Below, one piece after another: positions 22,918 to 35,761 of a stretch of DNA of 55,758 nucleotides. The notes below the pieces were generated by a model that was not told where the DNA came from, made no database searches, and saw nothing but the letters and a program-made list of their open reading frames with translations. Every line of letters starts with the position of its first letter. Within the stretch, counting starts at the first letter, position 1. Source of the stretch: a virus (taxonomy: Duplodnaviria; Caudoviricetes); the IMG/VR virus record IMGVR_UViG_3300030085_001335, positions 1 to 55,758 of that record; one strand, 5' to 3'. A program made the translations under genes and the position numbers.

Positions 22918-22928
22918 TTCTGTTTTAT

Positions 22929-23183: not shown

Positions 23184-23376
23184 CTTTAGTTTGATTTACT
23201 ATTTCTACTCCTTCATTACATACATACTTTGTGACTACGACCTTGTAAGACTTTAAGAATTTCTTTACTTGTCTAGTACCTATTCTCTCATACTGTTCTT
23301 TACTGCTGTAAATTCTAAACTTCTCGATGCAGTTCGTATAAGGGTCTTTAGCATGCATGATATAAAACTCTTTCAT
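23176..23376 (-). CDS. Hypothetical protein
   Basis: 66-aa ORF overlapping the next gene by 8 nt. Confidence 0.55.
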   Translation of the reverse strand: MKEFYIMHAKDPYTNCIEKFRIYSSKEQYERIGTRQVKKFLKSYKVVVTKYVCNEGVEIVNQTKDE

Positions 23377-23382
23377 GTTCTT

Positions 23383-23550
23383 TTAATTTAAGACTTTTGC
23401 TCTTCTATGCAGTTCATGGGTTGTCCATTCTCTCTTCTCTTCACCATCCATGTGCATCAAGACTGCTTCTACAAATCTCCAATATTCATCACCCATGGCT
23501 GTTGAGTGGAAGTAGAAGTCAACGAAGTCTACGTCTGCTGATACGTTCAT
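23383..23550 (-). CDS. Hypothetical protein
   Basis: Start moved to ATG 23550, giving ATGA coupling with the stop of the 23547-23720 ORF. Confidence 0.55.
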   Translation of the reverse strand: MNVSADVDFVDFYFHSTAMGDEYWRFVEAVLMHMDGEEKREWTTHELHRRAKVLN

Positions 23551-23720
23551 ACTAAGCTGTGTATAATCAGTTTGTCTTTTAATCTTTTTGATATTGCAGG
23601 TGCTTCTATTTTCCATACTTGAAACTCACCATCATTAACTTGATTGAAATTCACACCCCATTTTTTGAGATACTGCTTCACGATGTTGCTGTCTGAAGAA
23701 CAGCACATTAATTTTTTCAT
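23547..23720 (-). CDS. Small hypothetical protein (57 aa, not in ORF track)
   Basis: MKKLMCCSSDSNIVKQYLKKWGVNF...IIHSLV; A-rich leader; ATGA-coupled to the next gene. Confidence 0.55.
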   Translation of the reverse strand: MKKLMCCSSDSNIVKQYLKKWGVNFNQVNDGEFQVWKIEAPAISKRLKDKLIIHSLV

Positions 23721-23741
23721 TTGAATTGATTTTAGTTAGAT

Positions 23742-23772
23742 AAAAAAGGGTGGCTACTTTATTCACCACCCT
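23742..23772 (-). terminator. Intrinsic terminator
   Basis: AGGGUGGU-GAAUAAAGUA-GCCACCCU followed by a U run. Confidence 0.75.
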
Positions 23773-23875
23773 TACCAAACAACAAACAAAGATTCTCGTC
23801 TTTCCGAGACGTCATACAACCCCTACTTGATCAGAGGTGTTCACTAGGGTTTGTTGAGAAACCCCCGTTTCACTC
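23742..23875 (-). ncRNA. Candidate small structured RNA (about 135 nt)
   Basis: ORF-free interval between a promoter-like pair (TAAATTAG at 23878-23885, TTTGG at 23905-23909) and a terminator; hairpins GGGUUU/AAACCC and UCUCG-GAAAGA-CGAGA. Confidence 0.5.
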
Positions 23876-23942
23876 TGCTAATTTATAGGGATTATATCAG
23901 ACTACCAAATCTGATCTTAGTTTTTTTTCTACAAAATTATTT

Positions 23943-24182
23943 CTACCTATGCTTCTCATCCCACTTAGTCCAGTAATGACGGTGCTGTTGGAAGCCCATC
24001 AACGCTGTGAACAATGCACCTACCCAGAAGTAAGGTTGCCCTGTAATAACTGCCTTGACTATAAGCATGGTTAGGATTATAGGTGTTACTGATATGTTTG
24101 TTATCCTAGCCCAAGGTCTTTTTTGCTTGAGCAAGTACTCCCAATAGGAGCCAAATTTATTGTTATCCATCGAGTTCATCAT
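23943..24182 (-). CDS. Small membrane protein (two TM segments)
   Basis: ISVTPIILTMLIVKAVIT and YFWVGALFTALMGF. Confidence 0.6.
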   Translation of the reverse strand: MMNSMDNNKFGSYWEYLLKQKRPWARITNISVTPIILTMLIVKAVITGQPYFWVGALFTALMGFQQHRHYWTKWDEKHR

Positions 24183-24549
24183 TTTTATTTAGGTCAAGTC
24201 CTTTAATTTCAGAGATCATGTCCCTTACATGTGCTCCTGCCTCCAAGAGAGCTAGGTAATTATCAAAGTCTTTTTTTATAAAATCAGCCATATTCTCTTC
24301 TAAGAAAGTAACTGTTCCCTCATCAAGAAGATCATGAGGGGTTTGATCTGGAAGAATACCACCACAAAAAACATCTCTAGTGAGAAGATCAAATGTTGAT
24401 AGTTCCTCATCGTTTAGATGTTGATCTAAAGTATCTATCCATTCGTTCCATAGGTTACGGCAGTGCTGACTAGAACTGCCTTCGTACTGAAACTCATGGT
24501 ACATGAAAAAATACTGAGTGAATTGAAATTTTAAATTATTCATTTGCAT
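24163..24549 (-). CDS. Hypothetical protein
   Basis: 128-aa acidic ORF with A-rich leader. Confidence 0.6.
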   Translation of the reverse strand: MQMNNLKFQFTQYFFMYHEFQYEGSSSQHCRNLWNEWIDTLDQHLNDEELSTFDLLTRDVFCGGILPDQTPHDLLDEGTVTFLEENMADFIKKDFDNYLALLEAGAHVRDMISEIKGLDLNKNDELDG

Positions 24550-24575
24550 GTAGGTTTTAATAAATTAAATTACTG

Positions 24576-24644
24576 CTTTACTTGTGGTAACCCCACAACT
24601 TTACCTATGGGGACCCCACAACTTTATCTGTGGTAACCCCACAA
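24576..24644. repeat. Three tandem 23-bp repeats with internal dyad symmetry
   Basis: CTTTACTTGTGGTAACCCCACAA / CTTTACCTATGGGGACCCCACAA / CTTTATCTGTGGTAACCCCACAA. Confidence 0.9.
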
Positions 24645-24746
24645 CTTTTGAAAAACCTAGCTTTGTTTCTCATGGCTAAAACAAGCAAAGAAGTTGCATG
24701 TAAAACACCAGTCGCAGGATCTCCCTGCGCACCATACGCTTAGGTT

Positions 24747-25103
24747 TTAGAGCTGATCGTTACCAGCTATGTCTTTGATCTCAATATACATAGATGCATA
24801 CTTAGCCATAGATTTGTAAGTACTTATCATCCTTTTAGTCAGCATGAAACAAAACTCTTCCATGCTATCTTTGTCTAGGTGATCATCAGCATCTACGAAT
24901 GCACAACCGATACCTTCTTCTGCGCTTTTCTTGATGTAGCTAACCATGTCTATCAATAGTTCCTCAAGTGGTTTGTCAAGCCAGTTCTCTACGCCCATCT
25001 CTATGATGTCCTCACATAGGAATATCCTTGCGGCTGTTGATACCTCGTCATAATCTCCTAAGGAGTCATTGACTATCTTGATTGCTTCCTCACTCGTTAT
25101 CAT
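24747..25103 (-). CDS. Hypothetical protein
   Basis: 118-aa ORF; operon packing. Confidence 0.6.
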   Translation of the reverse strand: MITSEEAIKIVNDSLGDYDEVSTAARIFLCEDIIEMGVENWLDKPLEELLIDMVSYIKKSAEEGIGCAFVDADDHLDKDSMEEFCFMLTKRMISTYKSMAKYASMYIEIKDIAGNDQL

Positions 25104-25224
25104 ACGTCTCTACTTTTGAATGTGTTCTAGCGAATGCTAGTTCCACACTAGGTGTAACAAGGTTTGATACTTTACCATCCACTACTCTAGTGTAATGGTA
25201 CATTACTTCTTTGGTTTCTTCCAT
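25090..25224 (-). CDS. Small hypothetical protein (44 aa, not in ORF track)
   Basis: MEETKEVMYHYTRVVDGKVSNLVTPSVELAFARTHSKVETYDNE fills the gap between neighbours. Confidence 0.5.
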   Translation of the reverse strand: MEETKEVMYHYTRVVDGKVSNLVTPSVELAFARTHSKVETYDNE

Positions 25225-25232
25225 TGTTATAA

Positions 25233-25445
25233 TTATTTGATTCTGTGACGTATAACGTCAGCCGTTTTATCTATTTTATCATTCAACCACTTCTCGAAGT
25301 ACAGCCATTGCTGTGTTACCGTACCTGCTAACTGAGGTGTGTAGTCTACACTGACCACTAGGTCTCCGATGGTTGTTTGTTTCTCACCATTTTTGATGGC
25401 TATCATAATTGATTCTCTGATAATCTCTTTCTTATTGTACATCAT
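25233..25445 (-). CDS. Hypothetical protein
   Basis: 70-aa ORF. Confidence 0.55.
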   Translation of the reverse strand: MMYNKKEIIRESIMIAIKNGEKQTTIGDLVVSVDYTPQLAGTVTQQWLYFEKWLNDKIDKTADVIRHRIK

Positions 25446-25481
25446 GTCGTATGTGTTTTGTATTCGTTGTATTTTGTAATG

Positions 25482-25770
25482 AATTGTACTACTGCCTTGT
25501 ATGTTAAATCAAGACTACATTCCTCTAAAGTCCGTCATACCCATAAACTAAGTATTCGTTTATTTGTTGCTTCAACTTCTTGAGGTTGGTATTCGTGAAA
25601 GTGGGGTTTGCATATGCTGATGCGGTATATTCACCACTTCTCCAATTAATGCCGTAACCTTTGTAATAAATTACACCTCTATTTCTCTTCTCTAAATTTG
25701 TCATCGTTATATTCTTTAATAAATTCTACTACTGCTTTGTATGTTGAATCAAGATTACATTCCTCTAAAG
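25482..25770. repeat. 49-bp direct repeat pair (25482-25530 and 25722-25770)
   Basis: 45/49 identical by manual alignment; 240-bp offset. Confidence 0.85.
25525..25704 (-). CDS. Small hypothetical protein (59 aa, not in ORF track)
   Basis: MTNLEKRNRGVIYYKGYGINWRSGEY...YGYDGL; lies between the two repeat copies. Confidence 0.55.
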   Translation of the reverse strand: MTNLEKRNRGVIYYKGYGINWRSGEYTASAYANPTFTNTNLKKLKQQINEYLVYGYDGL

Positions 25771-25978
25771 CCCAATGTATATTGTTCCAAAAATCATCGT
25801 CATCATACTCGCATCTACTATCTAGCCTGCACTTTTGCGCTACTGGCATCAACCAATCCCAAGAAGTTTGAAATTTACTCAGAGACTTAATAGAATATGT
25901 CCATTCTCCGTTATCAAAACTTCTTTTGTCTGAGTATTTCACACCCATAAACTCTGCTATTAGCTTGTTATCATTCAT
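25679..25978 (-). CDS. Conserved phage protein with SWDWLMPV motif
   Basis: NKLIAEFMG...FQTSWDWLMPV...TYKAVVEFIK, a pattern I associate with Bacteroidetes phages. Confidence 0.7.
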   Translation of the reverse strand: MNDNKLIAEFMGVKYSDKRSFDNGEWTYSIKSLSKFQTSWDWLMPVAQKCRLDSRCEYDDDDFWNNIHWALEECNLDSTYKAVVEFIKEYNDDKFREEK

Positions 25979-26259
25979 ATCTCATCTACGTTTACGTTCA
26001 TATCTTCAAGCATCTCAAGTAGGTAGTCTGGTAGTTCGAAGATTCCATCGTAACCGTACAGTACGTTGTTTACGATCTCAAGCATACCTTCTGCATAGAA
26101 CTCATCCCCACCGCTTTCTACATCGTAGATTTCAAAGCCTGCATGCTCTCCATCTATGTATATACTTACGTCCATTTTTACTTTTGTTGGTTCGCTTACT
26201 CTACCGAAACTGTTTTCGTAGAAAGCTACTGTCGTGATTTCTTTGTGTGATTTTCTCAT
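25975..26259 (-). CDS. Hypothetical protein
   Basis: 94 aa; YAEGML...YDGIFELP; ATGA-coupled. Confidence 0.65.
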   Translation of the reverse strand: MRKSHKEITTVAFYENSFGRVSEPTKVKMDVSIYIDGEHAGFEIYDVESGGDEFYAEGMLEIVNNVLYGYDGIFELPDYLLEMLEDMNVNVDEI

Positions 26260-26298
26260 GTTTGTGTTTGTTTAATTTTGAGTATTTATTTTATTGTT

Positions 26299-26526
26299 TT
26301 ACCTTACTTCATTAAGAAGATAATCCACTATGCAATCATATTCGCTCCTAGCATCAACATTAAAATTAGATTCTAAGAATAGATTCTGATGTTTTAATAC
26401 TTCAGAAAATATTAAGTCATACTCAACTTCTTGGTATTCAGTTTCATTATTTTCAATATGGTTCATGAATAGTTGAGAGAATAAAAAGCTTTCGTAATTC
26501 ATGATAATTTGCTTTGAATTTTTCAT
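26299..26526 (-). CDS. Hypothetical protein
   Basis: Start moved to ATG 26526 because the upstream region is occupied by the 26535-26708 ORF. Confidence 0.55.
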   Translation of the reverse strand: MKNSKQIIMNYESFLFSQLFMNHIENNETEYQEVEYDLIFSEVLKHQNLFLESNFNVDARSEYDCIVDYLLNEVR

Positions 26527-26534
26527 GTTTGTAT

Positions 26535-26708
26535 TTATTTTTTTATGAAAAATATTTGTCCGCTTAAGTCGTAGTCGAAACTCCAACCTTGGTGTTTTAG
26601 TTCTTGTATTATACGCTCACATTCTGCATACATATCTAGGTTCTCATCCCAAGTATCTACGGTATCTTTTACCGCTTGGGGTAGGCAGTCGTACTCTTGT
26701 GCTGTCAT
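26535..26708 (-). CDS. Small hypothetical protein (57 aa, not in ORF track)
   Basis: MTAQEYDCLPQAVKDTV...GWSFDYDLSGQIFFIKK; ATGA-coupled to the upstream gene. Confidence 0.6.
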   Translation of the reverse strand: MTAQEYDCLPQAVKDTVDTWDENLDMYAECERIIQELKHQGWSFDYDLSGQIFFIKK

Positions 26709-27106
26709 GATTGCTTTGGATTTATGTTTGTTATCCCCATGATTTGTTTTGCTTTATCCCTTCCACGAGGGTTTAATCCATCCTCATCCCAGTATTTCCA
26801 GTTGTCATGAAGGCTCTGCAATGCAGACCAAAATGCTAAAGGATGACCTTTGTACTCTTCTTTCAATAGGTAATCCAACCCTTGTTCATTTCGTTGGTTT
26901 TTAACCATCTTGTCTAACTCATAAACATCACCTATAACGGTTCCAAACTCCTCCAAGGATGGTTCGTTCATACACATACCTACTGCACACATCCTCCCAT
27001 CTTTCGTTAGGTATCTACACTCCTCTCCACCACAGAAGATTTCTGTTGATCTGTTGTTTAACGTGTAGGTATCTGCTACCTGCTTTACAATTTCTTTCGT
27101 TGTCAT
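26705..27106 (-). CDS. Conserved phage hypothetical protein
   Basis: CRYLTKDGRMCAVG...LQSLHD motif. Confidence 0.65.
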   Translation of the reverse strand: MTTKEIVKQVADTYTLNNRSTEIFCGGEECRYLTKDGRMCAVGMCMNEPSLEEFGTVIGDVYELDKMVKNQRNEQGLDYLLKEEYKGHPLAFWSALQSLHDNWKYWDEDGLNPRGRDKAKQIMGITNINPKQS

Positions 27107-27117
27107 ATCTGTTTATT

Positions 27118-27417
27118 TTAATAATCATCATTCATCCTATCACCATACCCATGTGTTTCTAGGGTTGCGTAACGATCCTTTCTGTAAGGGTACTTCTTTG
27201 GATCATTGTAACACTTGATACAGTAGTGCCCCGTAGGTACACCATGTGCATCATACCTCATGTCGCTATCAACCCCACATCCATTGCAAGGTGTGATCTG
27301 CTGTATGTAATGATCGTTGTGGTCAAATGTATATTCCATCATCTCATCTACTTCCCAAGAGGAGTAGGTCTCATACTCAATCTCGTGTGTTTTTTTATTG
27401 ATAATCTGATACATCAT
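27118..27417 (-). CDS. Hypothetical protein with Zn-finger-like CxxC pairs
   Basis: CNGC...CIKC. Confidence 0.6.
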   Translation of the reverse strand: MMYQIINKKTHEIEYETYSSWEVDEMMEYTFDHNDHYIQQITPCNGCGVDSDMRYDAHGVPTGHYCIKCYNDPKKYPYRKDRYATLETHGYGDRMNDDY

Positions 27418-27452
27418 AACTGTTTAATTTTGAAGGGGTTACACCCCATTGG

Positions 27453-27809
27453 TTAATCTATAAATGTAAGTTCAATTTGATCACCGTTGTTAACGGCTTC
27501 CAGTATCTCGTCCATCAGCGCTTCGTACTGTGTGTATACTTCTTCGAAGTTCTCTAGTAGCTTCTCGCCACTACCTTTGATATCAAAGTATTTCTTGACG
27601 TCAGATACTTTCCAGTGTCTATTGGCTTTCATCTTGAACTCTACCCACATACCTAGGTCACGCCTTGAACACATTAGGTTCCAGTTTGCCTTGTTTGCCT
27701 TTGTTGGGTTTCTAAAGTAGTCGTAAAGGTCGACCCATAAAGGGGTTGTGTAGTTTGGGTTGTACACCTTTGGGTACTTACATAGGTTGATCTGTGTGAT
27801 TGTAGACAT
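27453..27809 (-). CDS. Hypothetical early protein
   Basis: Start moved to ATG 27809, downstream of promoter 27849. Confidence 0.6.
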   Translation of the reverse strand: MSTITQINLCKYPKVYNPNYTTPLWVDLYDYFRNPTKANKANWNLMCSRRDLGMWVEFKMKANRHWKVSDVKKYFDIKGSGEKLLENFEEVYTQYEALMDEILEAVNNGDQIELTFID

Positions 27810-27848
27810 AATGTTTTGATTTTGAGTTTTGCCGTTTGATTGACAGTG

Positions 27849-27883
27849 CAAATATAAGGGATAATGTTGGTAACTTCCAAATT
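27849..27883 (-). promoter_or_regulatory. Early promoter (-33 TTTGG at 27877-27881, -7 TATATTTG at 27849-27856)
   Basis: Both Bacteroidetes elements present, with the same spacing as promoters 30582 and 31328; upstream AAAAATAAA. Confidence 0.8.
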
Positions 27884-27905
27884 TATTTTTTTATAGTACG
27901 TAGTA

Positions 27906-28166
27906 CTATACTACTGTGAGTTCAGTGCCATCACATCGAACAGACTTGATAGTATCTGCGTTTATCATACGGTACGCATTCTTCTGAATATCATATACAG
28001 GTAGTAGACCTTTGCTCCTAGCATCGTACTTCATACCTATGCCTTTTGTGTACTTATGTACTCCCATACGTGCCGTCATTACTCTTTCCTCACCGTTCTT
28101 TTTAATGAACGTTACTGAGAAGATTTTACCACCTCTTACGAGGTTCTCGATTGTTTTTACTTTCAT
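27906..28166 (-). CDS. Sm-like/SH3 beta-barrel (WYL_2-like) protein
   Basis: FSVTFIKKNGEERVMTAR...VYDIQKNAYRMIN. Confidence 0.65.
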   Translation of the reverse strand: MKVKTIENLVRGGKIFSVTFIKKNGEERVMTARMGVHKYTKGIGMKYDARSKGLLPVYDIQKNAYRMINADTIKSVRCDGTELTVV

Positions 28167-28182
28167 AATTTTTAATTTATAA

Positions 28183-28773
28183 TTAAACCCATTGATTTCT
28201 AATAGTTACCCAAACAATAGCTTGGAACTGGTACGCCTTCACGCCCATCTCCTTAGCTACCTTCACGGTTTCTTCTTGAATGATACGGTACTGCTTAGGT
28301 GTTACAGATTCTCTACAAGTCCTCGACTTCTTAGATGAGGTTTGACAAGCTCTTAAGTGCCACTTGTCGATTGTAACAAAGTTACTATCGTTCTCACCTA
28401 CGTTCCTAGCGAATGCATACGTCTTAGGTGATGAGGTCAGTATCTTACGATCACCTTTTGCAATAGCGAAAGCCTTGGCTTTGTTTGCATCATAGGTACA
28501 TACCTTTACATCTTGCATAGGTACGTTATCACGTACTGCCATGAGTACTTGGACTGCATCGAACTTGTTTCTTTCCCATCTGTTATTGGGAGAAAGAGCC
28601 GAGATAACGCCTGCGGCTACTTCACCACGTACACCGTAGTCAGTTGATAATTGCTTTGCAAAATCCATTGCATCTTTGTACCAAACCAAACCTTGTTTGA
28701 TCTCGTCTTTAGTCGCTCTATTGTACCAAATACGTAGGTTAGAGCGATACTTTTTAAGCTCTTTTTTAGTCAT
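28183..28773 (-). CDS. Conserved phage protein, possible HhH-glycosylase-like fold
   Basis: GLVWY, AGVISALSPNNRWERN, PKTYAF, VTIDKWH, FQAIVW. Confidence 0.5.
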   Translation of the reverse strand: MTKKELKKYRSNLRIWYNRATKDEIKQGLVWYKDAMDFAKQLSTDYGVRGEVAAGVISALSPNNRWERNKFDAVQVLMAVRDNVPMQDVKVCTYDANKAKAFAIAKGDRKILTSSPKTYAFARNVGENDSNFVTIDKWHLRACQTSSKKSRTCRESVTPKQYRIIQEETVKVAKEMGVKAYQFQAIVWVTIRNQWV

Positions 28774-28794
28774 AACGTTTTGATTCTGAGTTTA

Positions 28795-29073
28795 TTAATT
28801 TTTTAGGAAAGAATCCCAGTCTACTCCAAGCGCACCATCGTGCTTAGATACGTGAAGGTCGTACAGTATTATAGCTACGTCTTGAACGTTACTGTCTTCG
28901 ATGGTTTTTATCTTATCTAAGATCGCTTGCTTCTTTGTTTCTTCTCTGTTATATACAGAGCTATCGCTTGAATACTGGTAGTAAAAGTCAAGTTCTCCTA
29001 GGTCTTGGTTTAGCTTTGCTAAGAAATCCATGTCCTCTGTAGAGGGTTTCCAGTTTTCGTCTCTTGTACTCAT
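28795..29073 (-). CDS. Hypothetical early protein
   Basis: DFYYQYSSD motif; preceded by the conserved AAAACATACATACCT leader. Confidence 0.65.
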   Translation of the reverse strand: MSTRDENWKPSTEDMDFLAKLNQDLGELDFYYQYSSDSSVYNREETKKQAILDKIKTIEDSNVQDVAIILYDLHVSKHDGALGVDWDSFLKN

Positions 29074-29101
29074 AGGTATGTATGTTTTAATTTTTGAATT
29101 T

Positions 29102-29146
29102 TGGAATCGGCAAGGGAATCGAACCCCTCATGCACCATGACCGATT
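29102..29146 (-). ncRNA. Minimal tRNA-like element (acceptor stem + T-arm + CCA; no anticodon arm)
   Basis: AAUCGGU pairs with GCCGAUU (7 bp); internal CAUG-GUG-CAUG hairpin; T-arm AGGGG-UUCGAUU-CCCUU; 3' CCA. Confidence 0.7.
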
Positions 29147-29156
29147 GATTGACTGC

Positions 29157-29501
29157 TTATAGCGAATCAAAGATTTTTGCCGCCCTTTGCCTAGACTCAT
29201 CCTTTGCATCCCATTCAGCATCTCTAAGGTCATACGTCCTCTTGATATACCATCTACGTAACGTATCTACGTCCTCTGTTGAGACGATATGCTCTTTAAA
29301 TGCATACCCACCATCTATGTACATTACTGCCGACAATATGATCGGACAAGAGGACTCTCTTGTAATTTCTGAAAACATACAATGCAGTTCTAGACGTACG
29401 TCATGACCGTCTACATTACCGCTTAGGCTCATGTTATCCAACGCTTTCTTGTTGAATTCAGTCCATTCTACCTTGTTTAATTTGTTAATTAAGTATTCCA
29501 T
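29157..29501 (-). CDS. Hypothetical early protein flanked by the hammerhead and the tRNA-like element
   Basis: 114-aa ORF with A-rich leader. Confidence 0.65.
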   Translation of the reverse strand: MEYLINKLNKVEWTEFNKKALDNMSLSGNVDGHDVRLELHCMFSEITRESSCPIILSAVMYIDGGYAFKEHIVSTEDVDTLRRWYIKRTYDLRDAEWDAKDESRQRAAKIFDSL

Positions 29502-29520
29502 AATATTTGATTTTGAATGT

Positions 29521-29586
29521 TAGTTTGTCTCATCAGTACAAAGAGAACTACTCTTTGTAGACAACCCCTAAGGGTTGTTTCGACTA
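29521..29586 (-). ncRNA. Type II hammerhead ribozyme
   Basis: GUC-GAAA-CAACCC-UUAG-GGGUUG-UC^-UACAAAGAG-UAGUU-CUCUUUGUA-CUGAUGA-GAC-A-AACUA: all core nucleotides and stems I/II/III present; GUC cleavage site between 29560 and 29559; loop I UAGUU complementary to the 3' tail AACUA. Confidence 0.93.
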
Positions 29587-29943
29587 TTCCATATCTAACC
29601 ATACAGGGTATGGGTTGCCACTATTCGAAGAGATTTTGTATACACAATAGCTACCGCTATTGCTTATGTATACCTTCCTACCTTCGTGAGTATGTGGTGT
29701 GGACTTACCTACCCAAACTGCGTAGTCGTTTCCAGTTCTCGGAGACTTACATTTTATGTAAGTGCTACCCTTGTTAGTCTCAAAGAGACTGAAAGTCGTA
29801 CCATCAATGTTAATTGATCTGCCAGTTGATAGACCGCTTTCGACATTGAATCCACCTCCCTTGGAGGTTTTAGATACGAATGTCTGAGTGAAGGCAGTAA
29901 TAGATATCGCTACCAAAGCCAAAGTGAAAATTGCTTTTTTCAT
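29584..29943 (-). CDS. Exported early protein (signal peptide)
   Basis: MKKAIFTLALVAISITAFT-Q signal-peptide pattern; its stop codon runs into hammerhead stem II. Confidence 0.65.
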   Translation of the reverse strand: MKKAIFTLALVAISITAFTQTFVSKTSKGGGFNVESGLSTGRSINIDGTTFSLFETNKGSTYIKCKSPRTGNDYAVWVGKSTPHTHEGRKVYISNSGSYCVYKISSNSGNPYPVWLDME

Positions 29944-29968
29944 GTGTATGTATTTATGTATGTATGTA

Positions 29969-30349
29969 TTAATAATCTAAGTAGTTTCTCTTGTAGTCTA
30001 AAAAGTAGTCGTTGTTGAAATCATACCTTTCACCTACGTATGAAGGATTGAAGACAAGAAAGCCTTTTTTACTTCTCCTATTTGTCTTTACTGCTATTGC
30101 ATCCTCTCCGAGGATTACACATACCTCCCTAAGCGTCTCCCTAAGGTCTCTCAAGTCCTCGAAAGATAGCGAAGCTATTAACGTACGTTCGAGACCCCAA
30201 TCACCGCCTTTGCACCTACGTTCCTCGAAATCAGTTACTGCGATGTCTGAAAATTCGGCTTCACACATTAGTGTTCTTAATGCTTTCGGCATCGAAGTCC
30301 TTTGTATACCTATGTTCACTTGTGCCGCTATGTTTGTTTCTTTTACCAT
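29969..30349 (-). CDS. Hypothetical early protein
   Basis: Start moved to ATG 30349, after the ATACATACATACGTC leader. Confidence 0.65.
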   Translation of the reverse strand: MVKETNIAAQVNIGIQRTSMPKALRTLMCEAEFSDIAVTDFEERRCKGGDWGLERTLIASLSFEDLRDLRETLREVCVILGEDAIAVKTNRRSKKGFLVFNPSYVGERYDFNNDYFLDYKRNYLDY

Positions 30350-30399
30350 GACGTATGTATGTATTTGATTTTGAATTTTTGATTGGTAATTGAACTGCC

Positions 30400-30531
30400 T
30401 TATGCAAGCTCTTGTTCTACGTACATCTGCTCTTCGCAGGTAAGTACGTCCCATTCTAGGGTGTTGATTGCCATTTCGAAGTCTAGCCCATCGAAGATGG
30501 ATGCAAGTTGGTTTAGCTTTTGCTCGTTCAT
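30400..30531 (-). CDS. Small acidic early protein (43 aa)
   Basis: ATG 30531 after AAAACATACATACCT, downstream of promoter 30582. Confidence 0.6.
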   Translation of the reverse strand: MNEQKLNQLASIFDGLDFEMAINTLEWDVLTCEEQMYVEQELA

Positions 30532-30581
30532 AGGTATGTATGTTTTATTTTTGAAGTTGTCGGAATATCGAATCGACCCCA

Positions 30582-30616
30582 CAAAGATACGGCAATCGAT
30601 TCGACAATTCCAAATT
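30582..30616 (-). promoter_or_regulatory. Early promoter (-33 TTTGG at 30610-30614, -7 TATCTTTG at 30582-30589)
   Basis: Conserved spacing; upstream AAAAATAAA shared with promoter 27849. Confidence 0.8.
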
Positions 30617-30659
30617 TATTTTTGTTAATGTTTTTTTACCCTTTAGGGTAGATTGCCAA

Positions 30660-31274
30660 TTAAAACGGGCAATCGCTTGTGTCGATGTCTGCATCTGAGT
30701 ACATAGGTGCACCATCAGCGAGTGCATCCTGCTCAGCTACGTACCTAGCGTGTCTAGCTGCTTCAATTGGGCATTGTCCGATCTCTAAATCAAACGGCAG
30801 GACTGCTTGCTTATTTGAGACTTTCTTAGCCTTCGGCTCATCCGTAGGTAGGTATGTCTGAGCAAGCCCTCTCGAAGCCCTTTGGGCTTGAACTTCTAGC
30901 TTTTGATTGCTAGTCAGCTTCGCTGGAGGGTTAGAGACTTTCTTTCTTCGGCTAGAAGTCTTTGACTTCTTTTTCGAAGTCTTCGACTTCGTTTTTGAAT
31001 CAACCTTTGGTTGATCAACGCCTACCTTCGCTAGAGCTTCGGCAACCGCTTTCTCAATCATAGATTGAACATCTGGAGTTTCAACCTTTTTTTGTTGCTT
31101 CGCAACATGCTTCGAAGTTTTCAGCCCTTTCACGAAGGTATGTAGCGCCTTGACCGCATCAAGGGCTTCGTTCTTAGCTTCCTCGCTTGGAATAAAGCAA
31201 GCTTTATTTATAGACTTCTGAGCATCTTTGATGAGGCTTGTTCTAGCCTCGTTGTCAAAACCGTAGGTTTTCAT
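30660..31274 (-). CDS. First early protein (Lys-rich middle, acidic tail ending CPF)
   Basis: Start moved to ATG 31274, after AAAAACATACATACCT; 204 aa. Confidence 0.7.
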   Translation of the reverse strand: MKTYGFDNEARTSLIKDAQKSINKACFIPSEEAKNEALDAVKALHTFVKGLKTSKHVAKQQKKVETPDVQSMIEKAVAEALAKVGVDQPKVDSKTKSKTSKKKSKTSSRRKKVSNPPAKLTSNQKLEVQAQRASRGLAQTYLPTDEPKAKKVSNKQAVLPFDLEIGQCPIEAARHARYVAEQDALADGAPMYSDADIDTSDCPF

Positions 31275-31327
31275 AGGTATGTATGTTTTTATTTTGAGCG
31301 TCAATCCGTTTGTCGAACTGAACACCG

Positions 31328-31362
31328 CAAATATATGGCAGCTTCAAAACAACCTCCAAATT
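31328..31362 (-). promoter_or_regulatory. First early promoter (-33 TTTGG at 31356-31360, -7 TATATTTG at 31328-31335)
   Basis: Both elements with conserved spacing; heads the minus-strand arm. Confidence 0.8.
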
Positions 31363-32003
31363 TTTGAGGGACTATTTTCGTGCGCGATTTCTCCTGCGCA
31401 TTATGCGCGTGGAAACAGGCGTAAAATCGATTTTCTCAGAGCCTCGTATGCGCTGACCTACGTAGGTGCGAGAAGAGCCCTCAGATTTGATGCATTGGAT
31501 CCAGTGTAGCCTCATGCGTAGGTATGTGTGTAGGTGTACGTATGTATGTGGGGGTGTGTCCCTTGCTTCCGTAGGGCTGAGGACCGAGCCGACTTTCCCC
31601 TTTCCGCTTGTGCAGGCTTTCGTACGTACGTACATACGTGGCTTTTCTTACTTCTAGTGCTTGGTTAATATACGATGGTTAAATAGCTGAAAGTCAAACA
31701 GTTATGCTACACAAAAAGCTCAAATGTGTGCGCAAGACGTAGGTACGTGATACCCACGGGGTGTGTGTTATGCGTTTGCTATGTGTAACGCGGGTGATAT
31801 GTAATACGTATTATCCCCACAATCTACATTACTCATCATTTTTTTCAACCCTACCCCTTTTAACATGCATAAAAAAGCTGTTCATTTTTCAACATATCCA
31901 ATCATCATATGACACAAAAGCAGTATAAGGGACTGCATACTAAGCAGTTACACTATTTACTTAAAGTAATGCTTTAACAGTTGACTATATCAAAAAAAAG
32001 CTG

Positions 32004-32011
32004 TAACTTTG
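32004..32011 (+). promoter_or_regulatory. -7 promoter box TAACTTTG with upstream TTG at 31981
   Basis: Matches TAnnTTTG; faces an interval with no credible gene that ends in a terminator. Confidence 0.6.
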
Positions 32012-32015
32012 CCTA

Positions 32016-32153
32016 ACAAGCGTTGCTTTAACAGCGGCATCGTAGAAAGCTCTGCACGCATTTAAGGTGTTGAGGAAAGAACAAGTAAGATAGATGACTC
32101 TATCATCTTATATAGCTGTGGAGGGCACAAGAACTGTGCTCTTTTTTTTTTTT
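32016..32153 (+). ncRNA. Candidate small structured RNA (about 135 nt)
   Basis: Bounded by promoter and terminator; hairpins GUUGCU/AGCGGC, GUAGA/UCUGC and UAAGAU/AUCUUA. Confidence 0.45.
32123..32153 (+). terminator. Intrinsic terminator
   Basis: GGGCACA-AGAAC-UGUGCUC followed by 12 T. Confidence 0.8.
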
Positions 32154-32188
32154 GTACCTATACATACCATGTATGTTTACTGTTTGGG

Positions 32189-32285
32189 GAACCTCTACCT
32201 ATATATGTTCTGTATTTCGTACCCTCTCTCTATATATGTTATGCATTCTGTACCTTCTCTCTATATATGTGGTGCTTTTCGTACC
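32189..32285. repeat. Three imperfect 30-31-bp tandem repeats
   Basis: GAACCTCTACCTATATATGTTCTGTATTTC / GTACCCTCTCTCTATATATGTTATGCATTCT / GTACCTTCTCTCTATATATGTGGTGCTTTTC / GTACC. Confidence 0.8.
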
Positions 32286-32317
32286 TAATGTCTAAACAGA
32301 GGCAGTCTTATAATTAA

Positions 32318-32325
32318 TATATTTG
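32318..32325 (+). promoter_or_regulatory. -7 promoter box TATATTTG
   Basis: 7 nt before ATG 32333; heads the late arm. Confidence 0.65.
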
Positions 32326-32332
32326 CAAGTAT

Positions 32333-33487
32333 ATGAGACCGATCAAGCCAACTGCTTTCATGACTCCTAATAAAGGACCAGATGATCCGCCTAAAAAAGA
32401 TTTTCTATCTAAAGCTACTGAGAAAAGAGATATAGATTACGCACCTTCTATTCAGCTTCAACGACTAGACTCAATAGACTCTAACGTTAGATCAAAAAAC
32501 CCTTACTTTGGTAACAAAGAAGAGGTTTACGTTCCATTTGATTTTTATTCCGACTGGCTTAATTCTGAGATGTATAAACGAATGATGGACGGAAAGGAAT
32601 CTATTCATGATAAAATGCGCCCCATACCATCTTCAATTTATAAAGACGATGAAGAATCAACCCAGAATATTATTCAGAAGTTTGGATATAAACCTGGCTT
32701 AGACGGGAAGGTATCAATTACAGATGCTAGAAGACAAAATTTAGAAAATACTGAAGTAGAAAACTATGCTCTTTCAGATTTTAAGAACATGGTTAGTAAG
32801 GGGGAATACATAAGCGGAGGTGAATATAAAAGAGATTCTGATGGGAATATTATTAGCAGCTACCCAAAAGTAAAATTGCAAAATCCAAAATATAAAACTA
32901 GTACAGGTCAGTCTATTAGTTTTGATGATTACTTGTCTACGTTGGTTCATGAGCTTTCTCATGCATCAGATGTTGATATACTTAATTATGATGGTCCAAA
33001 CAGTACCTGGGATGCTATTTATTATGAGGCAAGAAAGGAAAGAAGAGGAGAGCCAGTTCCAGAAGGTACTTTTGGCTTAGAAGAAAGAACTGGGGGATAC
33101 AGGAAGGCGTTAATACCTAGTAAAGATGTAGATTTAATAAATTCTTTTGTTGAAAAAAACAGAGAAAAAAACCTTAAAGGACATTATCCAGAATATACAC
33201 GTAACCGAGACTTGAACTGGAGGTATTACACTGACCCTACAGAGGTTAGGGCTAGAGTAAACTCTCAGAGATACGATTTATTTAAGAAGGGAATTTTTAA
33301 TCCATTCTCACAAAAAATGACTCAAAAAAAGCTGGATGAAATAAGAAAGGATACAATTAAATCTGGTTCAAAAAATATGAAAGACCTATTTAACTTCTTT
33401 TCTGACGATCAGATTATAAAGATGTTTAACTCTATAGCTATGGAAGAAACAGGTAAATCAAAAGGTAGGATCCTTAATTTTGCTTAA
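32333..33487 (+). CDS. HExxH zincin-like protein
   Basis: TLVHELSHAS and downstream YYTDPTEVRAR. Confidence 0.55.
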   Translation: MRPIKPTAFMTPNKGPDDPPKKDFLSKATEKRDIDYAPSIQLQRLDSIDSNVRSKNPYFGNKEEVYVPFDFYSDWLNSEMYKRMMDGKESIHDKMRPIPSSIYKDDEESTQNIIQKFGYKPGLDGKVSITDARRQNLENTEVENYALSDFKNMVSKGEYISGGEYKRDSDGNIISSYPKVKLQNPKYKTSTGQSISFDDYLSTLVHELSHASDVDILNYDGPNSTWDAIYYEARKERRGEPVPEGTFGLEERTGGYRKALIPSKDVDLINSFVEKNREKNLKGHYPEYTRNRDLNWRYYTDPTEVRARVNSQRYDLFKKGIFNPFSQKMTQKKLDEIRKDTIKSGSKNMKDLFNFFSDDQIIKMFNSIAMEETGKSKGRILNFA

Positions 33488-33521
33488 AGATAACAGCAGA
33501 AACATCATACGATAAATTAAT

Positions 33522-33529
33522 TAAATTTG
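33522..33529 (+). promoter_or_regulatory. -7 promoter box TAAATTTG
   Basis: 4 nt before ATG 33534. Confidence 0.6.
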
Positions 33530-33533
33530 CAAC

Positions 33534-33956
33534 ATGGCAACGCTAACTACAAAAATAACTGAATCCGTAACAGTCAACAGTAAAGTTTATGGAGCTACAA
33601 ACACCATGAGTATTACTGGTGTAAACAACGTTTATGAAACTGTTGTGACTATAGGTACAACAGCAGCAACAGCAATAGACTTTGTAGCTTCAGCTCCAAC
33701 CTTTGGTTCTGTATTAGAAGGAGATCTTAAGTATCTTAGGATAACAAACACAGATGCATCTAATGGTGTAAATATTATCATAACACTCAAAGGTGCTTCA
33801 GATAAATATAAACAAACAATAGGACCAGGTAAGTCATACATAATTACTAGCGATACTATAAGTTTTGACGGTGGTAGCGCTGGTTTTATGGAGCACATTA
33901 TTCTTGACGCAGTTACAGCAGACGTTGAATGTGAATTCTTTTTAGCAACAGCATAA
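33534..33956 (+). CDS. Small beta-rich virion structural protein
   Basis: Thr/Ala/Ser-rich; KYLRITNTD...PGKSYII; similar in character to 47415-47828. Confidence 0.5.
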   Translation: MATLTTKITESVTVNSKVYGATNTMSITGVNNVYETVVTIGTTAATAIDFVASAPTFGSVLEGDLKYLRITNTDASNGVNIIITLKGASDKYKQTIGPGKSYIITSDTISFDGGSAGFMEHIILDAVTADVECEFFLATA

Positions 33957-33968
33957 TACATTATAGAT

Positions 33969-34259
33969 ATGGCAGATACAACTTCAGAAGAGATACTTAA
34001 AATATTGCAGGGAATGCAAGCTGCACAAGATAAAGCAGAGGAAAGCTTTGACCCATACAAAGGAAGAACATTCATTCCTAGAATGTCTCCAGAGTTTAAG
34101 AAGATGTTGGTTGAGGGTATTAGAAAAGCTAGAGCTAAGAGGCAAGAAAGAAAAGCTGCAGATCGTCTTGAGAATAAAATGGGTGAACCTCAAGATTTAA
34201 TTCAAAATAACGATATGTTTGCTAAGTACGGTGGTAAGATAAAAAAATACAAAGGATAA
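33969..34259 (+). CDS. Small protein ending in KYGGKIKKYKG
   Basis: 96-aa ORF, coupled to the next gene. Confidence 0.6.
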   Translation: MADTTSEEILKILQGMQAAQDKAEESFDPYKGRTFIPRMSPEFKKMLVEGIRKARAKRQERKAADRLENKMGEPQDLIQNNDMFAKYGGKIKKYKG

Positions 34260-34693
34260 TGAATAATGCAGGAACAATGGCTGATATGATTGAAGCCGCT
34301 ATGAAAAAGAAAGAAGGACCTAAGGATAGTTTTACTATGGCTGGTCAATACGCAGGTCCAGTTCAGAGAGACGAAGATCGTGAGTTCGTTATGTATGAAT
34401 CACCAAACGGTGAACAGATTCAAGTGTATGGTAACTGGAATGAGTTTGCTGTAGATAGAGACGAACAAGGTCTTGACTTGATCGCTGATGAAGACTACCC
34501 AATCGTTCGTAATGAAGATGGTGAGTACATATTAGATGAGGCTGCTTATGAAAGAATGGGGGAAGAGATGCGTATGAAGCAAGAGATGATGAATAGAGAG
34601 ATGATGCGTGAGGATGAAGAGCAGATGATGCAACAAGAAGAAGAACAAAGAATGATGGGTGGTGGAATGATGCCTATGAAGAGACGTTACTAA
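34259..34693 (+). CDS. Met/Glu-rich hypothetical protein
   Basis: 144 aa; ends MMGGGMMPMKRRY. Confidence 0.6.
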   Translation: MNNAGTMADMIEAAMKKKEGPKDSFTMAGQYAGPVQRDEDREFVMYESPNGEQIQVYGNWNEFAVDRDEQGLDLIADEDYPIVRNEDGEYILDEAAYERMGEEMRMKQEMMNREMMREDEEQMMQQEEEQRMMGGGMMPMKRRY

Positions 34694-34705
34694 TAATACT
34701 GGTTA

Positions 34706-35761
34706 ATGAAAGCTATTAGGAAAAACGAACCTTACACTACCCCACCTACCAACCCACCAACAGCAGCAGATAGCTTGTTTCTCCTTAACAACAATAGAGA
34801 AGTAGCTAAATTGTTAGATCTTGGTTATGGGACTGACAATATTGATAGAAGAAACCTACTAGAAAACTGGGAAAAGTTTGGTTTTGATATCTCAAAAAAA
34901 AAGGCACTTGATAACTTGCAAAGAGACCTTAATTCTTCTTCCGTCTCTAATATGAAAAGATCCAAAGATCAATCAAATTACATAGACACACAGGGGGATT
35001 TTTTTGGAATAACTGACTACCTTTCAGGAGGAGGTGATGACTACTATATGCCTACTCAGTATATACATCCTGGCATCGTACCACAGGGATTTGCTGACTA
35101 CATCCCTAGCATCCAGGCAATAGACAAAATTAAAAAGAAAGATCCAGATTTTCTTCAAAAGATTTTAGATAACATGCCAGACATACCTACTGATGCTAGT
35201 GGTAATGTTAATGTTTCAAGTCTCCCATCTATAGCTACTTACATTTATGATGACTTAGCAATAACTCCTACAAAGCATTTAACGCCTGAGCAAAGAAAAT
35301 TAAGAATTAAACTTTATGGGAACGAAAACGTAGGAAATGTTGACGCACCTACATATGAGCTGCCGCCTAAGCCATCATCTCAGATGTCAGACAATAAGAA
35401 AAAATCGTCTAGAAAAACAGACCGCATCAAACCTATTAAGCGCCGTGGTTTACCTTCTCGTCCAGAGCCAGAGTTACAAGTTAGAGAGCAAGAACCTAGA
35501 GATAAACTCATTGATACCCAAGCTGTATACAGAAACCCTTTATCTAATAGACTCAATATAAGAGGTCTTGAGCGTCCTTTGATGCAGACAGGTGTGAAAA
35601 AAATCTATGAGCGTCCAGATGGAACTAGATATGTAACAAGAGAAAGGTTTGATAGTGACATGATAAAAGAAATAGATGAGATTAAAAACCCTGCTCCAAG
35701 GATAATCAAAGCCCAAAGTTTTAAGAAAGGTGGTATTATCCCAGTTAAAAAAAGACGATAA
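34706..35761 (+). CDS. Hypothetical protein (possible virion cargo)
   Basis: 351 aa; starts MKAIRK and ends FKKGGIIPVKKRR. Confidence 0.6.
   Translation: MKAIRKNEPYTTPPTNPPTAADSLFLLNNNREVAKLLDLGYGTDNIDRRNLLENWEKFGFDISKKKALDNLQRDLNSSSVSNMKRSKDQSNYIDTQGDFFGITDYLSGGGDDYYMPTQYIHPGIVPQGFADYIPSIQAIDKIKKKDPDFLQKILDNMPDIPTDASGNVNVSSLPSIATYIYDDLAITPTKHLTPEQRKLRIKLYGNENVGNVDAPTYELPPKPSSQMSDNKKKSSRKTDRIKPIKRRGLPSRPEPELQVREQEPRDKLIDTQAVYRNPLSNRLNIRGLERPLMQTGVKKIYERPDGTRYVTRERFDSDMIKEIDEIKNPAPRIIKAQSFKKGGIIPVKKRR

What the first reader, a model, noticed from the sequence alone, without database searches (positions are those of the whole stretch)
29073..29943. Candidate new system: a self-processing early mRNA with one gene bracketed by a ribozyme and a tRNA mimic
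Seen, in transcription order from promoter 30582: exported-protein gene, hammerhead, 114-aa gene (29157-29501), tRNA-like element, next gene. Established: hammerhead cleavage leaves a 2',3'-cyclic phosphate upstream and a 5'-OH downstream; RNase P leaves 3'-OH and 5'-P. Inference: two different chemistries cut out a monocistronic RNA of about 410 nt (29559-29147) with a 5'-OH end and a 5' hairpin (stem I), which should resist 5'-monophosphate-dependent decay. This would parallel T7 RNase III processing but use RNA-encoded signals, or it could mark a mobile gene cassette. Together with the elements at 23742, 24651 and 32016 it suggests an RNA-based control layer in a phage with no RNA polymerase of its own.
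Basis: inference. Interest (0 to 1): 0.85.

Follow-up and report, generated by a model that had tools for sequence, protein, structure and literature searches.

The report
Independent ribozyme and tRNA-mimic punctuation
An uncultured marine phage has a genuine self-cutting hammerhead RNA and a stripped-down tRNA look-alike on either side of one small early gene, but relatives show that each travels with its own upstream gene, so they are two separate "cut here" marks in a long message and not one paired device.

Summary
A type II hammerhead sits at 29519-29585(-): Rfam 47.9 bits against a cut-off of 37, with stems and pseudoknot that covary in relatives. A 42-nt acceptor/T-arm minihelix sits at 29105-29146(-). 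ARAGORN and Rfam do not call it a tRNA, but look-alikes with different, still-pairing stems recur in related phage contigs, always on the transcribed strand.

The "one system bracketing one gene" reading fails:
- Two contigs 92-95% identical to the window have the 114-aa gene with its minihelix but no hammerhead before it.
- The hammerhead instead follows the exported-protein gene wherever that gene goes (6 of 8 loci). The other 2 loci have a terminator hairpin there.
- In another relative the order is reversed.

Each element is therefore inherited with the gene upstream of it, and the cassettes shuffle.

Most likely both are cut sites in a polycistronic early RNA: self-cleavage at the hammerhead, host RNase P (perhaps also RNase Z) at the minihelix. 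No cleavage was shown.

Hammerheads flanking phage genes are published. I found no paper on the phage minihelix. This scan has already noted the same combination in at least 29 other genomes.

The parts
30582..30613 (-). Promoter-like site (TTG, 21 nt, TAnnTTTG), the probable start of the unit that holds both elements
   Evidence: It shares a 42-nt repeat (71% identity) with the site at 27849-27880 (family D8). The count of such sites in the window (8) is not above shuffles (mean 5.1), so function is inferred.
29584..29943 (-). Gene for a 119-aa protein with an N-terminal signal-peptide-like segment (exp119); the hammerhead is fused to its stop codon
   Evidence: phrog_16207 at E 1.4e-05; no Pfam family. 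Homologues in 7 viral loci.
29519..29585 (-). Type II hammerhead ribozyme; predicted cut between 29560 and 29559; loop I 29546-29550 pairs with tail 29521-29525
   Evidence: Rfam RF02276 at 47.9 bits, gathering score 37. With L002 and L005, 8 of 24 pairs change on both sides and 91.4% of cells pair; at most 2 of 500 shuffles reach the observed values.
29502..29527 (-). A/C-rich leader of the 114-aa gene, one copy of a repeated leader family; homology with L106/L107 begins here
   Evidence: D15: 29504-29527 and 30362-30385, 88% identity; block 29527-29070.
29157..29501 (-). 114-aa gene of unknown function, the gene between the two elements
   Evidence: 0 Pfam and 0 PHROG families. One protein cluster at 89% identity in the 5.8-billion-protein search. 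0 relatives in viral contigs; 2 metagenome loci.
29102..29146 (-). tRNA-like minihelix: 7-bp acceptor-like stem, 11-nt linker containing GGU, 5-bp T-stem and T-loop, then C-C-A
   Evidence: Model R1 finds it and no second copy in the window at E up to 10. The L106/L107 copy differs at one base, which turns a G-U pair into A-U. On the model-fitted alignment of 11 matches, 7 of 12 pairs change on both sides.
29074..29101 (-). Leader of the 92-aa gene, a copy of the repeated leader family
   Evidence: D1 and D3: copies before the ATGs at 29073, 30349, 30531 and 31274.
28795..29073 (-). 92-aa gene that follows the minihelix
   Evidence: No Pfam or PHROG family.

Best explanation
The early operon of this Flavobacteriia-type podophage is built from cassettes of the form leader, gene, 3' RNA element. 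Two such elements happen to lie one gene apart here.

The type II hammerhead belongs to the exported-protein gene upstream of it. It should cut itself between 29560 and 29559. That leaves the upstream mRNA ending in the stem III hairpin with a 2',3'-cyclic phosphate. The downstream RNA starts with a 5'-OH and the stem I hairpin.

The minihelix belongs to the 114-aa gene upstream of it. It presents the stacked acceptor/T-arm (12 bp) and a GGU-containing linker that could stand in for the D-loop at the tRNA elbow. Host RNase P would then cut between 29147 and 29146. RNase Z or another nuclease might cut just after 29105-29104.

Both elements would divide one long transcript into gene-sized mRNAs, each beginning a short, standard A/C-rich leader before the next start codon.

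Shown: the identity of both elements, their separate inheritance, their strand bias and their placement. Inferred: co-transcription, every cleavage, and any effect on stability or translation.
For: 1. The hammerhead is genuine. The loop I/tail pseudoknot covaries: UAGUU with AACUA here, UGGCU with AGCCA in L002. This matches the published type II consensus (passages of PMC3088659).

2. The hammerhead is tied to the exported-protein gene. Of 8 loci with that gene's 3' end (the window plus the 7 loci), 6 have a hammerhead starting within 5 nt of the stop. These are type II in the window, L002/L019, L005/L021 and L020, and type I in L024 and L025. The downstream genes differ. The other 2 loci (L022, L023) have a terminator-like hairpin there (for L022; L023 read).

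3. The minihelix is tied to the 114-aa gene. In L106 and L107 it sits 10 nt after the stop, as in the window, but is followed by the exported-protein gene and not by the 92-aa gene. No hammerhead precedes the 114-aa gene there.

4. My descriptor scans of 85 loci (694,515 nt) give 20 type I hammerheads, 6 type II, 16 minihelices outside tRNAs and 17 tRNAs. All are on the transcribed strand and none on the other. Dinucleotide shuffles give a mean of 1.2 minihelix hits per strand, at most 4 (30 shuffles). Hammerhead hits in 5 shuffles: 0.

5. Placement is the same for the element types. The gap to the next ATG is 22-33 nt for 7 of 15 minihelices, 15-24 nt for 14 of 20 type I hammerheads and 26-30 nt for 5 of 6 type II hammerheads.

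6. A slot is shared. One gene family is preceded by a type I hammerhead in L033 (21 nt) and L035 (22 nt) and by a minihelix in L054 (23 nt).

7. RNase P binds the T-stem-loop/acceptor stack and measures from the elbow (passage of PMC4919913). tRNA-like t-elements direct RNase P/Z cuts in plant mitochondrial mRNAs (passages of PMC1920247).
Against: - No cleavage was observed. No RNA run holding this DNA was listed, so there are no transcript ends.
- The minihelix fold is not unusually stable (z -0.30), and its T-arm motif alone is at chance level in the window.
- The minihelix and type I hammerhead counts rest on descriptors I wrote, which demand pairing. The 16 minihelix hits include near-duplicates (L024/L025/L078, L064/L070, L027/L031) and two weak ones (L022, L043), leaving about 10 independent elements.
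- Rfam at gathering level found none of the 17 type I and 3 type II descriptor hits in the 16 loci. In L033 it listed only 1 of 3 type I hits, at 20.7 bits against a cut-off of 34.
- Model R1 gives E below 0.01 over 742,706 nt for only two relatives outside the near-identical copies, L029 and L054. The others score E 0.055 to 4.3.
- The trailing CCA is not conserved. Most relatives have CUAA-like sequence after the stem.
- The shared-slot case rests on weak protein similarity (25% over 85 residues, E 8e-07).
- The nearest cultured relative examined has no such elements in its first 32 kb.
Confidence: 0.62

Rival explanations
1. One reading: the hammerhead and the tRNA mimic are a dedicated pair that uses two chemistries to excise a stable monocistronic mRNA of about 413 nt for the 114-aa gene.
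For: In the window the two elements do flank exactly one gene. L005 and L020 also carry both elements within about 600 nt. Loci with both are more frequent than independence predicts: 8 of 85, one-sided Fisher p 0.0026, uncorrected for relatedness.
Against: L106 and L107, the only relatives of the 114-aa gene found, lack the hammerhead before it. The hammerhead follows the exported-protein gene in 6 of 8 loci, with varying downstream genes. In L005/L020 the order is reversed and two other genes lie between the elements. L002 has the hammerhead but no minihelix in 7.5 kb. L003 and L006 have a minihelix but no hammerhead.
Confidence: 0.06
2. The minihelix is a decaying relic of a phage tRNA gene (D and anticodon arms deleted) that no longer does anything. 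Only the hammerhead is functional.
For: Related contigs carry true tRNA genes in the same operons: 17 ARAGORN calls in the 85 loci. The element has no unusual stability. The linker and the 3' tail vary.
Against: Across 92-95% nt divergence the only change restores a Watson-Crick pair. Several unrelated acceptor sequences keep pairing: 7 of 12 pairs change on both sides on a model-fitted alignment, which leans towards the structure. All 16 hits are on the transcribed strand. 7 of 15 lie 22-33 nt before a start codon. 13 of 15 distinct hits have GG in the linker, although by my estimate chance alone would give about half.
Confidence: 0.12
3. The minihelix is functional but is not a cut site. It stays in the mRNA as a structured 5' or 3' module. 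It might stabilise the RNA, enhance translation of the next gene, or bind or titrate a tRNA-binding host protein such as the CCA-adding enzyme, TruB/TrmA or EF-Tu.
For: It lies at a fixed short distance before start codons. A canonical T-loop is the recognition site for several tRNA enzymes (my recall, no call). The CCA-like tail occurs in some copies: the window, L006/L032 and L056.
Against: It occupies the same kind of slot as self-cleaving ribozymes, including one shared gene family. The closest precedent, t-elements, are cut (PMC1920247). Nothing here tests binding.
Confidence: 0.15
4. The minihelix is the phage attachment site, a copy of the 3' part of a host tRNA gene used for integration.
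For: Phage att sites often copy the T-arm and 3' acceptor strand of a tRNA gene (general knowledge; also the title of reference 69 in PMC3088659).
Against: The element also has the complementary 5' acceptor strand, which an att core would not need. A 21-nt stretch covering most of the T-arm and the 3' acceptor strand has 1 exact match in 185,579 species genomes. That match is in a Paraburkholderia contig and is not a tRNA. No integrase family appeared among the 34 ORFs scanned. Relatives carry different sequences in the same fold.
Confidence: 0.02

Closest known systems
Clustered hammerhead ribozymes flanking genes in prophages, and the type II hammerhead with a loop I/3'-tail pseudoknot (Perreault et al. 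2011, PMC3088659; passages read)
   Same: Same ribozyme class and architecture, with the same pseudoknot. Same context: between genes of a phage polycistronic unit, with varying flanking genes. Same proposed role of cutting long phage transcripts into gene-length mRNAs.
   Different: The window has a single hammerhead. Its partner mark is not a ribozyme but a tRNA-like minihelix. Here the hammerhead is consistently tied to the 3' end of one gene family, and a terminator hairpin replaces it in two relatives.
t-elements of plant mitochondria and the tRNA-punctuation model (Forner et al. 2007, PMC1920247; abstract and passages read)
   Same: Non-canonical tRNA-like structures with the GGTTCRANYCC T-arm motif lie next to mRNA ends and are taken to direct RNase P and RNase Z cuts. 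True tRNAs in the same transcripts do the same job.
   Different: Organelle versus bacteriophage. t-elements keep a degenerate cloverleaf, whereas this element has no anticodon arm at all (42 nt). For t-elements RNA ends were mapped; here nothing has been mapped.
Theta (HDV-like) ribozymes next to phage tRNA genes (Kienbeck et al. 2024, PMC10879173; search listing and start of abstract only)
   Same: A small self-cleaving ribozyme and a tRNA-shaped RNA in one phage transcript.
   Different: A different ribozyme class, placed directly beside a functional tRNA whose end it trims. Here the two elements are 373 nt apart, a gene lies between them, the tRNA-like part has no anticodon, and the two are inherited separately.
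RNase III processing of T7 early mRNA
   Same: A polycistronic early phage RNA is cut between genes at RNA-encoded structures, which leaves hairpins at the ends.
   Different: The signals are different (a ribozyme and a tRNA mimic, not RNase III hairpins), and so are the enzymes and the end chemistry.

Membership tests
Hammerhead ribozyme, type II (Rfam RF02276) | Score at or above the curated gathering score | tested here: met
   47.9 bits against 37.
Hammerhead ribozyme, type II (Rfam RF02276) | Conserved core (CUGANGA, GAAA, cleavage triplet ending in H) with stems I and III closed and stem II open | tested here: met
   Read and the Rfam alignment. CUGAUGA is at 29536-29530, GAAA at 29581-29578, GUC at 29562-29560. 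Stem II has 3 bp and is open.
Hammerhead ribozyme, type II (Rfam RF02276) | Stems and the loop I/tail pseudoknot kept by compensatory change in relatives | tested here: met
   8 of 24 pairs change on both sides across 3 sequences; at most 2 of 500 shuffles reach the observed values. The L005 pseudoknot is shifted by one column and counts as partly broken there.
Hammerhead ribozyme, type II (Rfam RF02276) | Self-cleavage | not testable with these tools
   No RNA data; needs in vitro transcription.
tRNA gene | Cloverleaf with D arm and anticodon arm, detectable by ARAGORN or Rfam RF00005 | tested here: not met
   0 tRNAs by ARAGORN. No RF00005 match at E up to 10 in 20000-36000. Only 11 nt lie between the acceptor strand and the T-stem.
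tRNA-like processing element (t-element-like RNase P/Z substrate) | Canonical T-arm motif GGTTCRANYCC | tested here: met
   29125-29115(-). The same motif was used to find t-elements (PMC1920247).
tRNA-like processing element (t-element-like RNase P/Z substrate) | Acceptor-like stem stacked on the T-stem, 12 bp in all | tested here: met
   7 + 5 bp. Kept in relatives with other sequences.
tRNA-like processing element (t-element-like RNase P/Z substrate) | RNA ends that coincide with the element's borders, or cleavage by RNase P/Z | not testable with these tools
Hammerhead-flanked gene arrays of prophages (Perreault 2011) | Several hammerheads close together that flank genes | tested here: not met
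   The window has one hammerhead only. Relatives do have arrays: 3 in L033 within 1.3 kb, and 2 each in L035, L060, L063, L066, L074 and L080.
   L106/L107 have the gene plus minihelix without the hammerhead. L002 has the hammerhead without a minihelix. L005 has the reverse order.
Phage attP derived from a host tRNA gene | Identity with the 3' part of a host tRNA gene | tested here: not met
   1 exact match of a 21-mer in the genome collection, and it is not a tRNA.

The most novel reading that the evidence does not exclude
Marine Bacteroidota phages, and other phages that share this early-gene pool, assemble early operons from shuffling cassettes of leader, gene and 3' cut mark. In these cassettes self-cleaving hammerheads (types I and II), true tRNAs and an undescribed class of about 42-nt anticodon-less mini-tRNAs are interchangeable. 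The mini-tRNA would recruit host RNase P/Z through an acceptor/T-arm stack plus a GGU 'D-loop' mimic. The purpose could be to give every cistron its own 5' end and short A/C-rich leader, which may matter for translation start in hosts that do not use Shine-Dalgarno pairing.
Probability: 0.35. Interest if true: 0.7.

Novelty: new variant of a known kind. Interest (0 to 1): 0.5.

Why it matters
If the minihelix is cut by host tRNA-processing enzymes, phages would have two interchangeable ways to punctuate operon RNAs. One is self-contained (the ribozyme). The other borrows an essential host enzyme that the host cannot easily withdraw. That would carry the organellar tRNA-punctuation principle over to bacterial viruses. 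It would also explain tRNA-like fragments that gene finders ignore, and give compact, host-independent or host-dependent RNA cut sites for engineering polycistronic constructs in Bacteroidota. The observation that each element travels with the gene upstream of it, and that cassettes recombine at a repeated leader, also suggests how such operons are rearranged. The specific claim of a two-part device around one gene does not hold, so the value lies in the class of element and not in this locus.

Tried and rejected
- **RNA evidence.** The look-up of sequencing runs listed 23 runs and no RNA holder, so read laying was not used and nothing can be said about expression or RNA ends.

- **Context of the 114-aa protein's relative P0001.** I got the context from the search for related loci on metagenome contigs instead.

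- **Nucleotide relatives.** A blastn search of 28000-31500 against the phage collection found no match.

- **Covariance model from diverse minihelices.** MAFFT puts the 5' acceptor strands in different columns because the linker lengths differ. I therefore built R1 from the window and L107 only, which makes it close to a single-sequence model. Its reach is limited.

- **Rfam support for the relatives' type I hammerheads.** None at gathering level. One weak hit of 3 in L033. Their support is my descriptor plus covariation: 11 of 16 pairs change on both sides and 0 of 500 shuffles reach the score. The 14 sequences in that alignment were picked by a descriptor that demands part of the pairing.

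- **Cultured model system.** Flavobacterium phage elemoF (NC_055853.1, first 32 kb of 59.8 kb) has no hammerhead and only one weak minihelix hit, which lies inside a coding region. The remaining 27.8 kb was not scanned.

- **attP idea.** Rejected.

- **Thermodynamics.** Stability as evidence for the minihelix is rejected.

- **Function of the 114-aa, 92-aa, 126-aa and 43-aa proteins.** No Pfam or PHROG family.

- **Literature.** Searches for a published phage minihelix or tRNA-like punctuation listed nothing relevant. Subscription journals and supplementary files were not seen. The supplements of PMC3088659, which hold its hammerhead alignments and gene contexts, could bear on whether such neighbours were noted before.
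Full report
**The genome and the transcription unit**

The window is a whole IMG/VR virus record of 55,758 nt, estimated 92% complete. Its large terminase is closest to those of Flavobacterium phages (68 of 123 matching records) and Cellulophaga phages (15 of 123), all below 60% identity. PHROG and Pfam scans of 34 ORFs gave these families:
- terminase, portal and virion proteins
- primase/helicase
- Erf-like annealing protein and exonuclease
- ribonucleotide reductase
- GroES-like protein

No integrase or RNA polymerase family appeared. The 2642-aa protein matches only an LPD23 domain.

The early genes are on the minus strand. Sites of the form TTG, 17-21 nt, TAnnTTTG lie at 31359-31328, 30613-30582 and 27880-27849. 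The total of 8 such sites in the window is not above shuffles (mean 5.1). However, the last two share a 42-nt repeat (D8), and similar sequences precede early genes in L003, L005 and L107. No minus-strand terminator-like hairpin lies between 31936 and 24729. Co-transcription of 30582 through both elements is therefore plausible, but it is inferred.

**The hammerhead**

Rfam's type II hammerhead model matches 29585-29519(-) at 47.9 bits (gathering score 37). It is the only match at gathering level in the window. Read:
- The G of the exported-protein gene's TAG stop is the first base of the 3-bp open stem II.
- Stem III has 7 bp.
- The cut falls after C29560.
- Stem I has 9 bp, and its 5-nt loop pairs perfectly with five bases of the 3' tail.

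That loop/tail pseudoknot is the feature Perreault et al. found in most type II hammerheads and showed to be needed for fast cleavage (passages of PMC3088659).

The relative L002 has a copy at 43.1 bits. L005 and L020 have copies at 36.3 bits, just under the cut-off. In an alignment of the window, L002 and L005, 8 of 24 pairs change on both sides and 91.4% of cells pair. At most 2 of 500 shuffles reach the observed values. The pseudoknot changes from UAGUU/AACUA to UGGCU/AGCCA in L002.

**The minihelix**

At 29146-29105(-) a 7-bp stem encloses an 11-nt linker and a 5-bp stem with a canonical T-loop. C, C, A follow. It is not a tRNA gene: ARAGORN and Rfam find nothing.

Taken alone it is unremarkable. 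The T-arm motif is at chance level in the window, and the fold is no more stable than shuffles. Its reality comes from comparison.

I wrote a descriptor with these requirements:
- T-loop TTCRANY
- 5 of 5 T-stem pairs
- at least 6 of 7 acceptor pairs, directly abutting the T-stem
- linker of 3-30 nt

I ran it on 85 loci (694,515 nt): 80 loci around DUF7178 homologues, 4 around exported-protein homologues, and the window's early arm. It gave 16 hits outside true tRNAs on the transcribed strand and 0 on the other strand. Dinucleotide shuffles gave a mean of 1.2 per strand, at most 4. About 10 hits are independent, since several are near-duplicates and two look weak.

The acceptor sequences differ from one another. 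Thirteen of 15 distinct hits have GG in the linker, and the covariance-model alignments show a recurrent RGGU there. By my own estimate chance would give GG in roughly half of such linkers.

Model R1, built from the window and L107, finds no second copy in the window at E up to 10. It finds L029 (E 0.0035) and L054 (E 0.0047) in 742,706 nt, and others only weakly. On its fitted alignment of 11 matches, 7 of 12 pairs change on both sides and 97.4% of cells pair. That alignment leans towards the structure.

**Are the two a unit?**

No. The 114-aa protein has one related cluster in the large protein collection (89% identity). Two metagenome contigs, L106 and L107, encode that relative. They match the window at 92-95% nt identity in three blocks: 31604-30362, then 29527-29070, then 29965 onward. 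So the gene order there is:
- the 204-aa gene
- the promoter-like site
- the 43-aa gene
- the 114-aa gene
- the minihelix
- the exported-protein gene

The 114-aa gene has no hammerhead before it. The minihelix is still 10 nt after its stop, with one base change that turns a G-U pair into A-U.

Conversely, the block made of the exported-protein gene plus hammerhead (29975-29496) is found in L002 downstream of the DUF7178 gene. It is followed there by a different gene, and there is no minihelix in 7.5 kb. In L005 and L020 a minihelix follows the first small gene of the operon, and the hammerhead comes two genes later, after the exported-protein gene.

Across the 8 loci that hold the 3' end of an exported-protein gene:
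- 6 have a hammerhead at the stop, 4 of type II and 2 of type I.
- 2 have a terminator-like hairpin there.

Each element thus belongs to the gene upstream of it. The block boundaries fall in a repeated A/C-rich leader that precedes at least five early genes (D1, D3, D15). That leader is a likely site of recombination. This last point is an inference.

**A shared role**

Hammerheads are common in these contigs. My descriptor finds 20 type I and 6 type II, all on the transcribed strand, with 0 hits in 5 shuffles. Rfam's gathering thresholds miss them. An alignment of 14 type I copies has 11 of 16 pairs changing on both sides, and 0 of 500 shuffles reach the score.

Hammerheads and minihelices sit in the same kind of slot, just after a stop codon and a short, fixed distance before the next ATG. 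One gene family is preceded by a type I hammerhead in L033 and L035 and by a minihelix in L054, at 21-23 nt. The L054 protein is only weakly similar to the others. Loci with both kinds number 8 of 85 where about 3 are expected, uncorrected for relatedness.

Replacement of the hammerhead by a terminator hairpin after the same gene suggests one job of the type II hammerhead. It may give the upstream mRNA a hairpin-protected 3' end without stopping the polymerase.

**Mechanism proposed**

- The hammerhead self-cleaves. This is inferred from an intact, covarying core.
- Host RNase P, which recognises the T-stem-loop/acceptor stack and measures from the elbow (PMC4919913), cuts at the 5' edge of the minihelix.
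- RNase Z or another nuclease may free its 3' side.
This would be a by-product of cassette order.
- Whether a 5'-OH end stabilises RNA in Bacteroidota is unknown to me. In Bacillus, a ribozyme-made 5'-OH end is reported to be a decay signal (my recall of work on glmS; no paper read).

**Comparison and novelty**

Hammerheads that flank genes in prophage operons, and the proposal that they cut long phage RNAs into gene-length mRNAs, are in print (PMC3088659). tRNA-like elements that direct RNase P/Z cuts at mRNA ends are known from plant mitochondria (PMC1920247). Ribozymes beside phage tRNAs are known as theta ribozymes (listing only). Four full-text searches found no description of anticodon-less mini-tRNAs as punctuation in phage operons.

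This scan's own notes list 31 earlier findings of hammerhead plus minihelix punctuation in at least 29 genomes. This locus is therefore one more instance of something the scan has already met. What it adds is a clean demonstration that the two elements are inherited separately, each with its upstream gene.

**Verdict**

The paired-system reading is not supported. The cassette and punctuation reading is the best supported, and no cleavage has been shown.

Noticed in passing
window 24576-24648: Three head-to-tail 23-nt repeats, each with a short palindrome, lie just after the minus-strand terminator-like hairpin at 24729-24713 and before the gene starting at 24541. They look like iterons or operator sites (D4).
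   Followed up: no
window 29074-29101, 29502-29527, 30350-30385, 30532-30563, 31275-31297: A repeated A/C-rich leader (with the motif ...CATACATAC... before the ATG) precedes at least five early genes. Homology blocks with relatives break inside it, so it may be where cassettes recombine.
   Followed up: partly
L022:2865-2894 and the same place in L023: Homologues of the exported-protein gene are followed by a 13-pair terminator-like hairpin with a T-run, where other loci have a hammerhead.
   Followed up: partly
L024:214-261, L025:2860-2907: The exported-protein homologue here is followed by a type I hammerhead, not a type II. The gene keeps a ribozyme at its stop codon while the ribozyme's topology differs.
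   Followed up: partly
L027:2734-2775 versus L031:2621-2662: Two close copies of a minihelix differ by one extra base on each side of the T-stem (5 versus 6 pairs), an insertion that keeps the pairing.
   Followed up: no
window 25457-25533 and 25697-25773: A 77-nt direct repeat at 86% identity, 240 nt apart, probably from two paralogous small early genes (D2).
   Followed up: no
L033:4599-4662: A long, nearly perfect palindromic hairpin that gives spurious microRNA-family hits on both strands, between two early genes.
   Followed up: no
window 28183-28773 (-): The DUF7178 protein used as an anchor has relatives at 27-43% identity in phages of Mycobacterium, Gordonia, cyanobacteria and roseobacters, some annotated as glycosylase. 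The 80 loci drawn with it may therefore span phages of several host groups.
   Followed up: no
window 5384-13312 (+): The 2642-aa ORF has no PHROG family and only a small LPD23 (large polyvalent protein) domain at residues 1328-1373, so its role, and whether the phage brings any polymerase, stays open.
   Followed up: partly
window 31330-32330: About 1 kb without a convincing ORF lies between the divergent early and late arms. Its sequence is conserved at 81% in L002 and 91% in L107. In L006 a minihelix sits at the end of the corresponding region, just before the first early gene.
   Followed up: no
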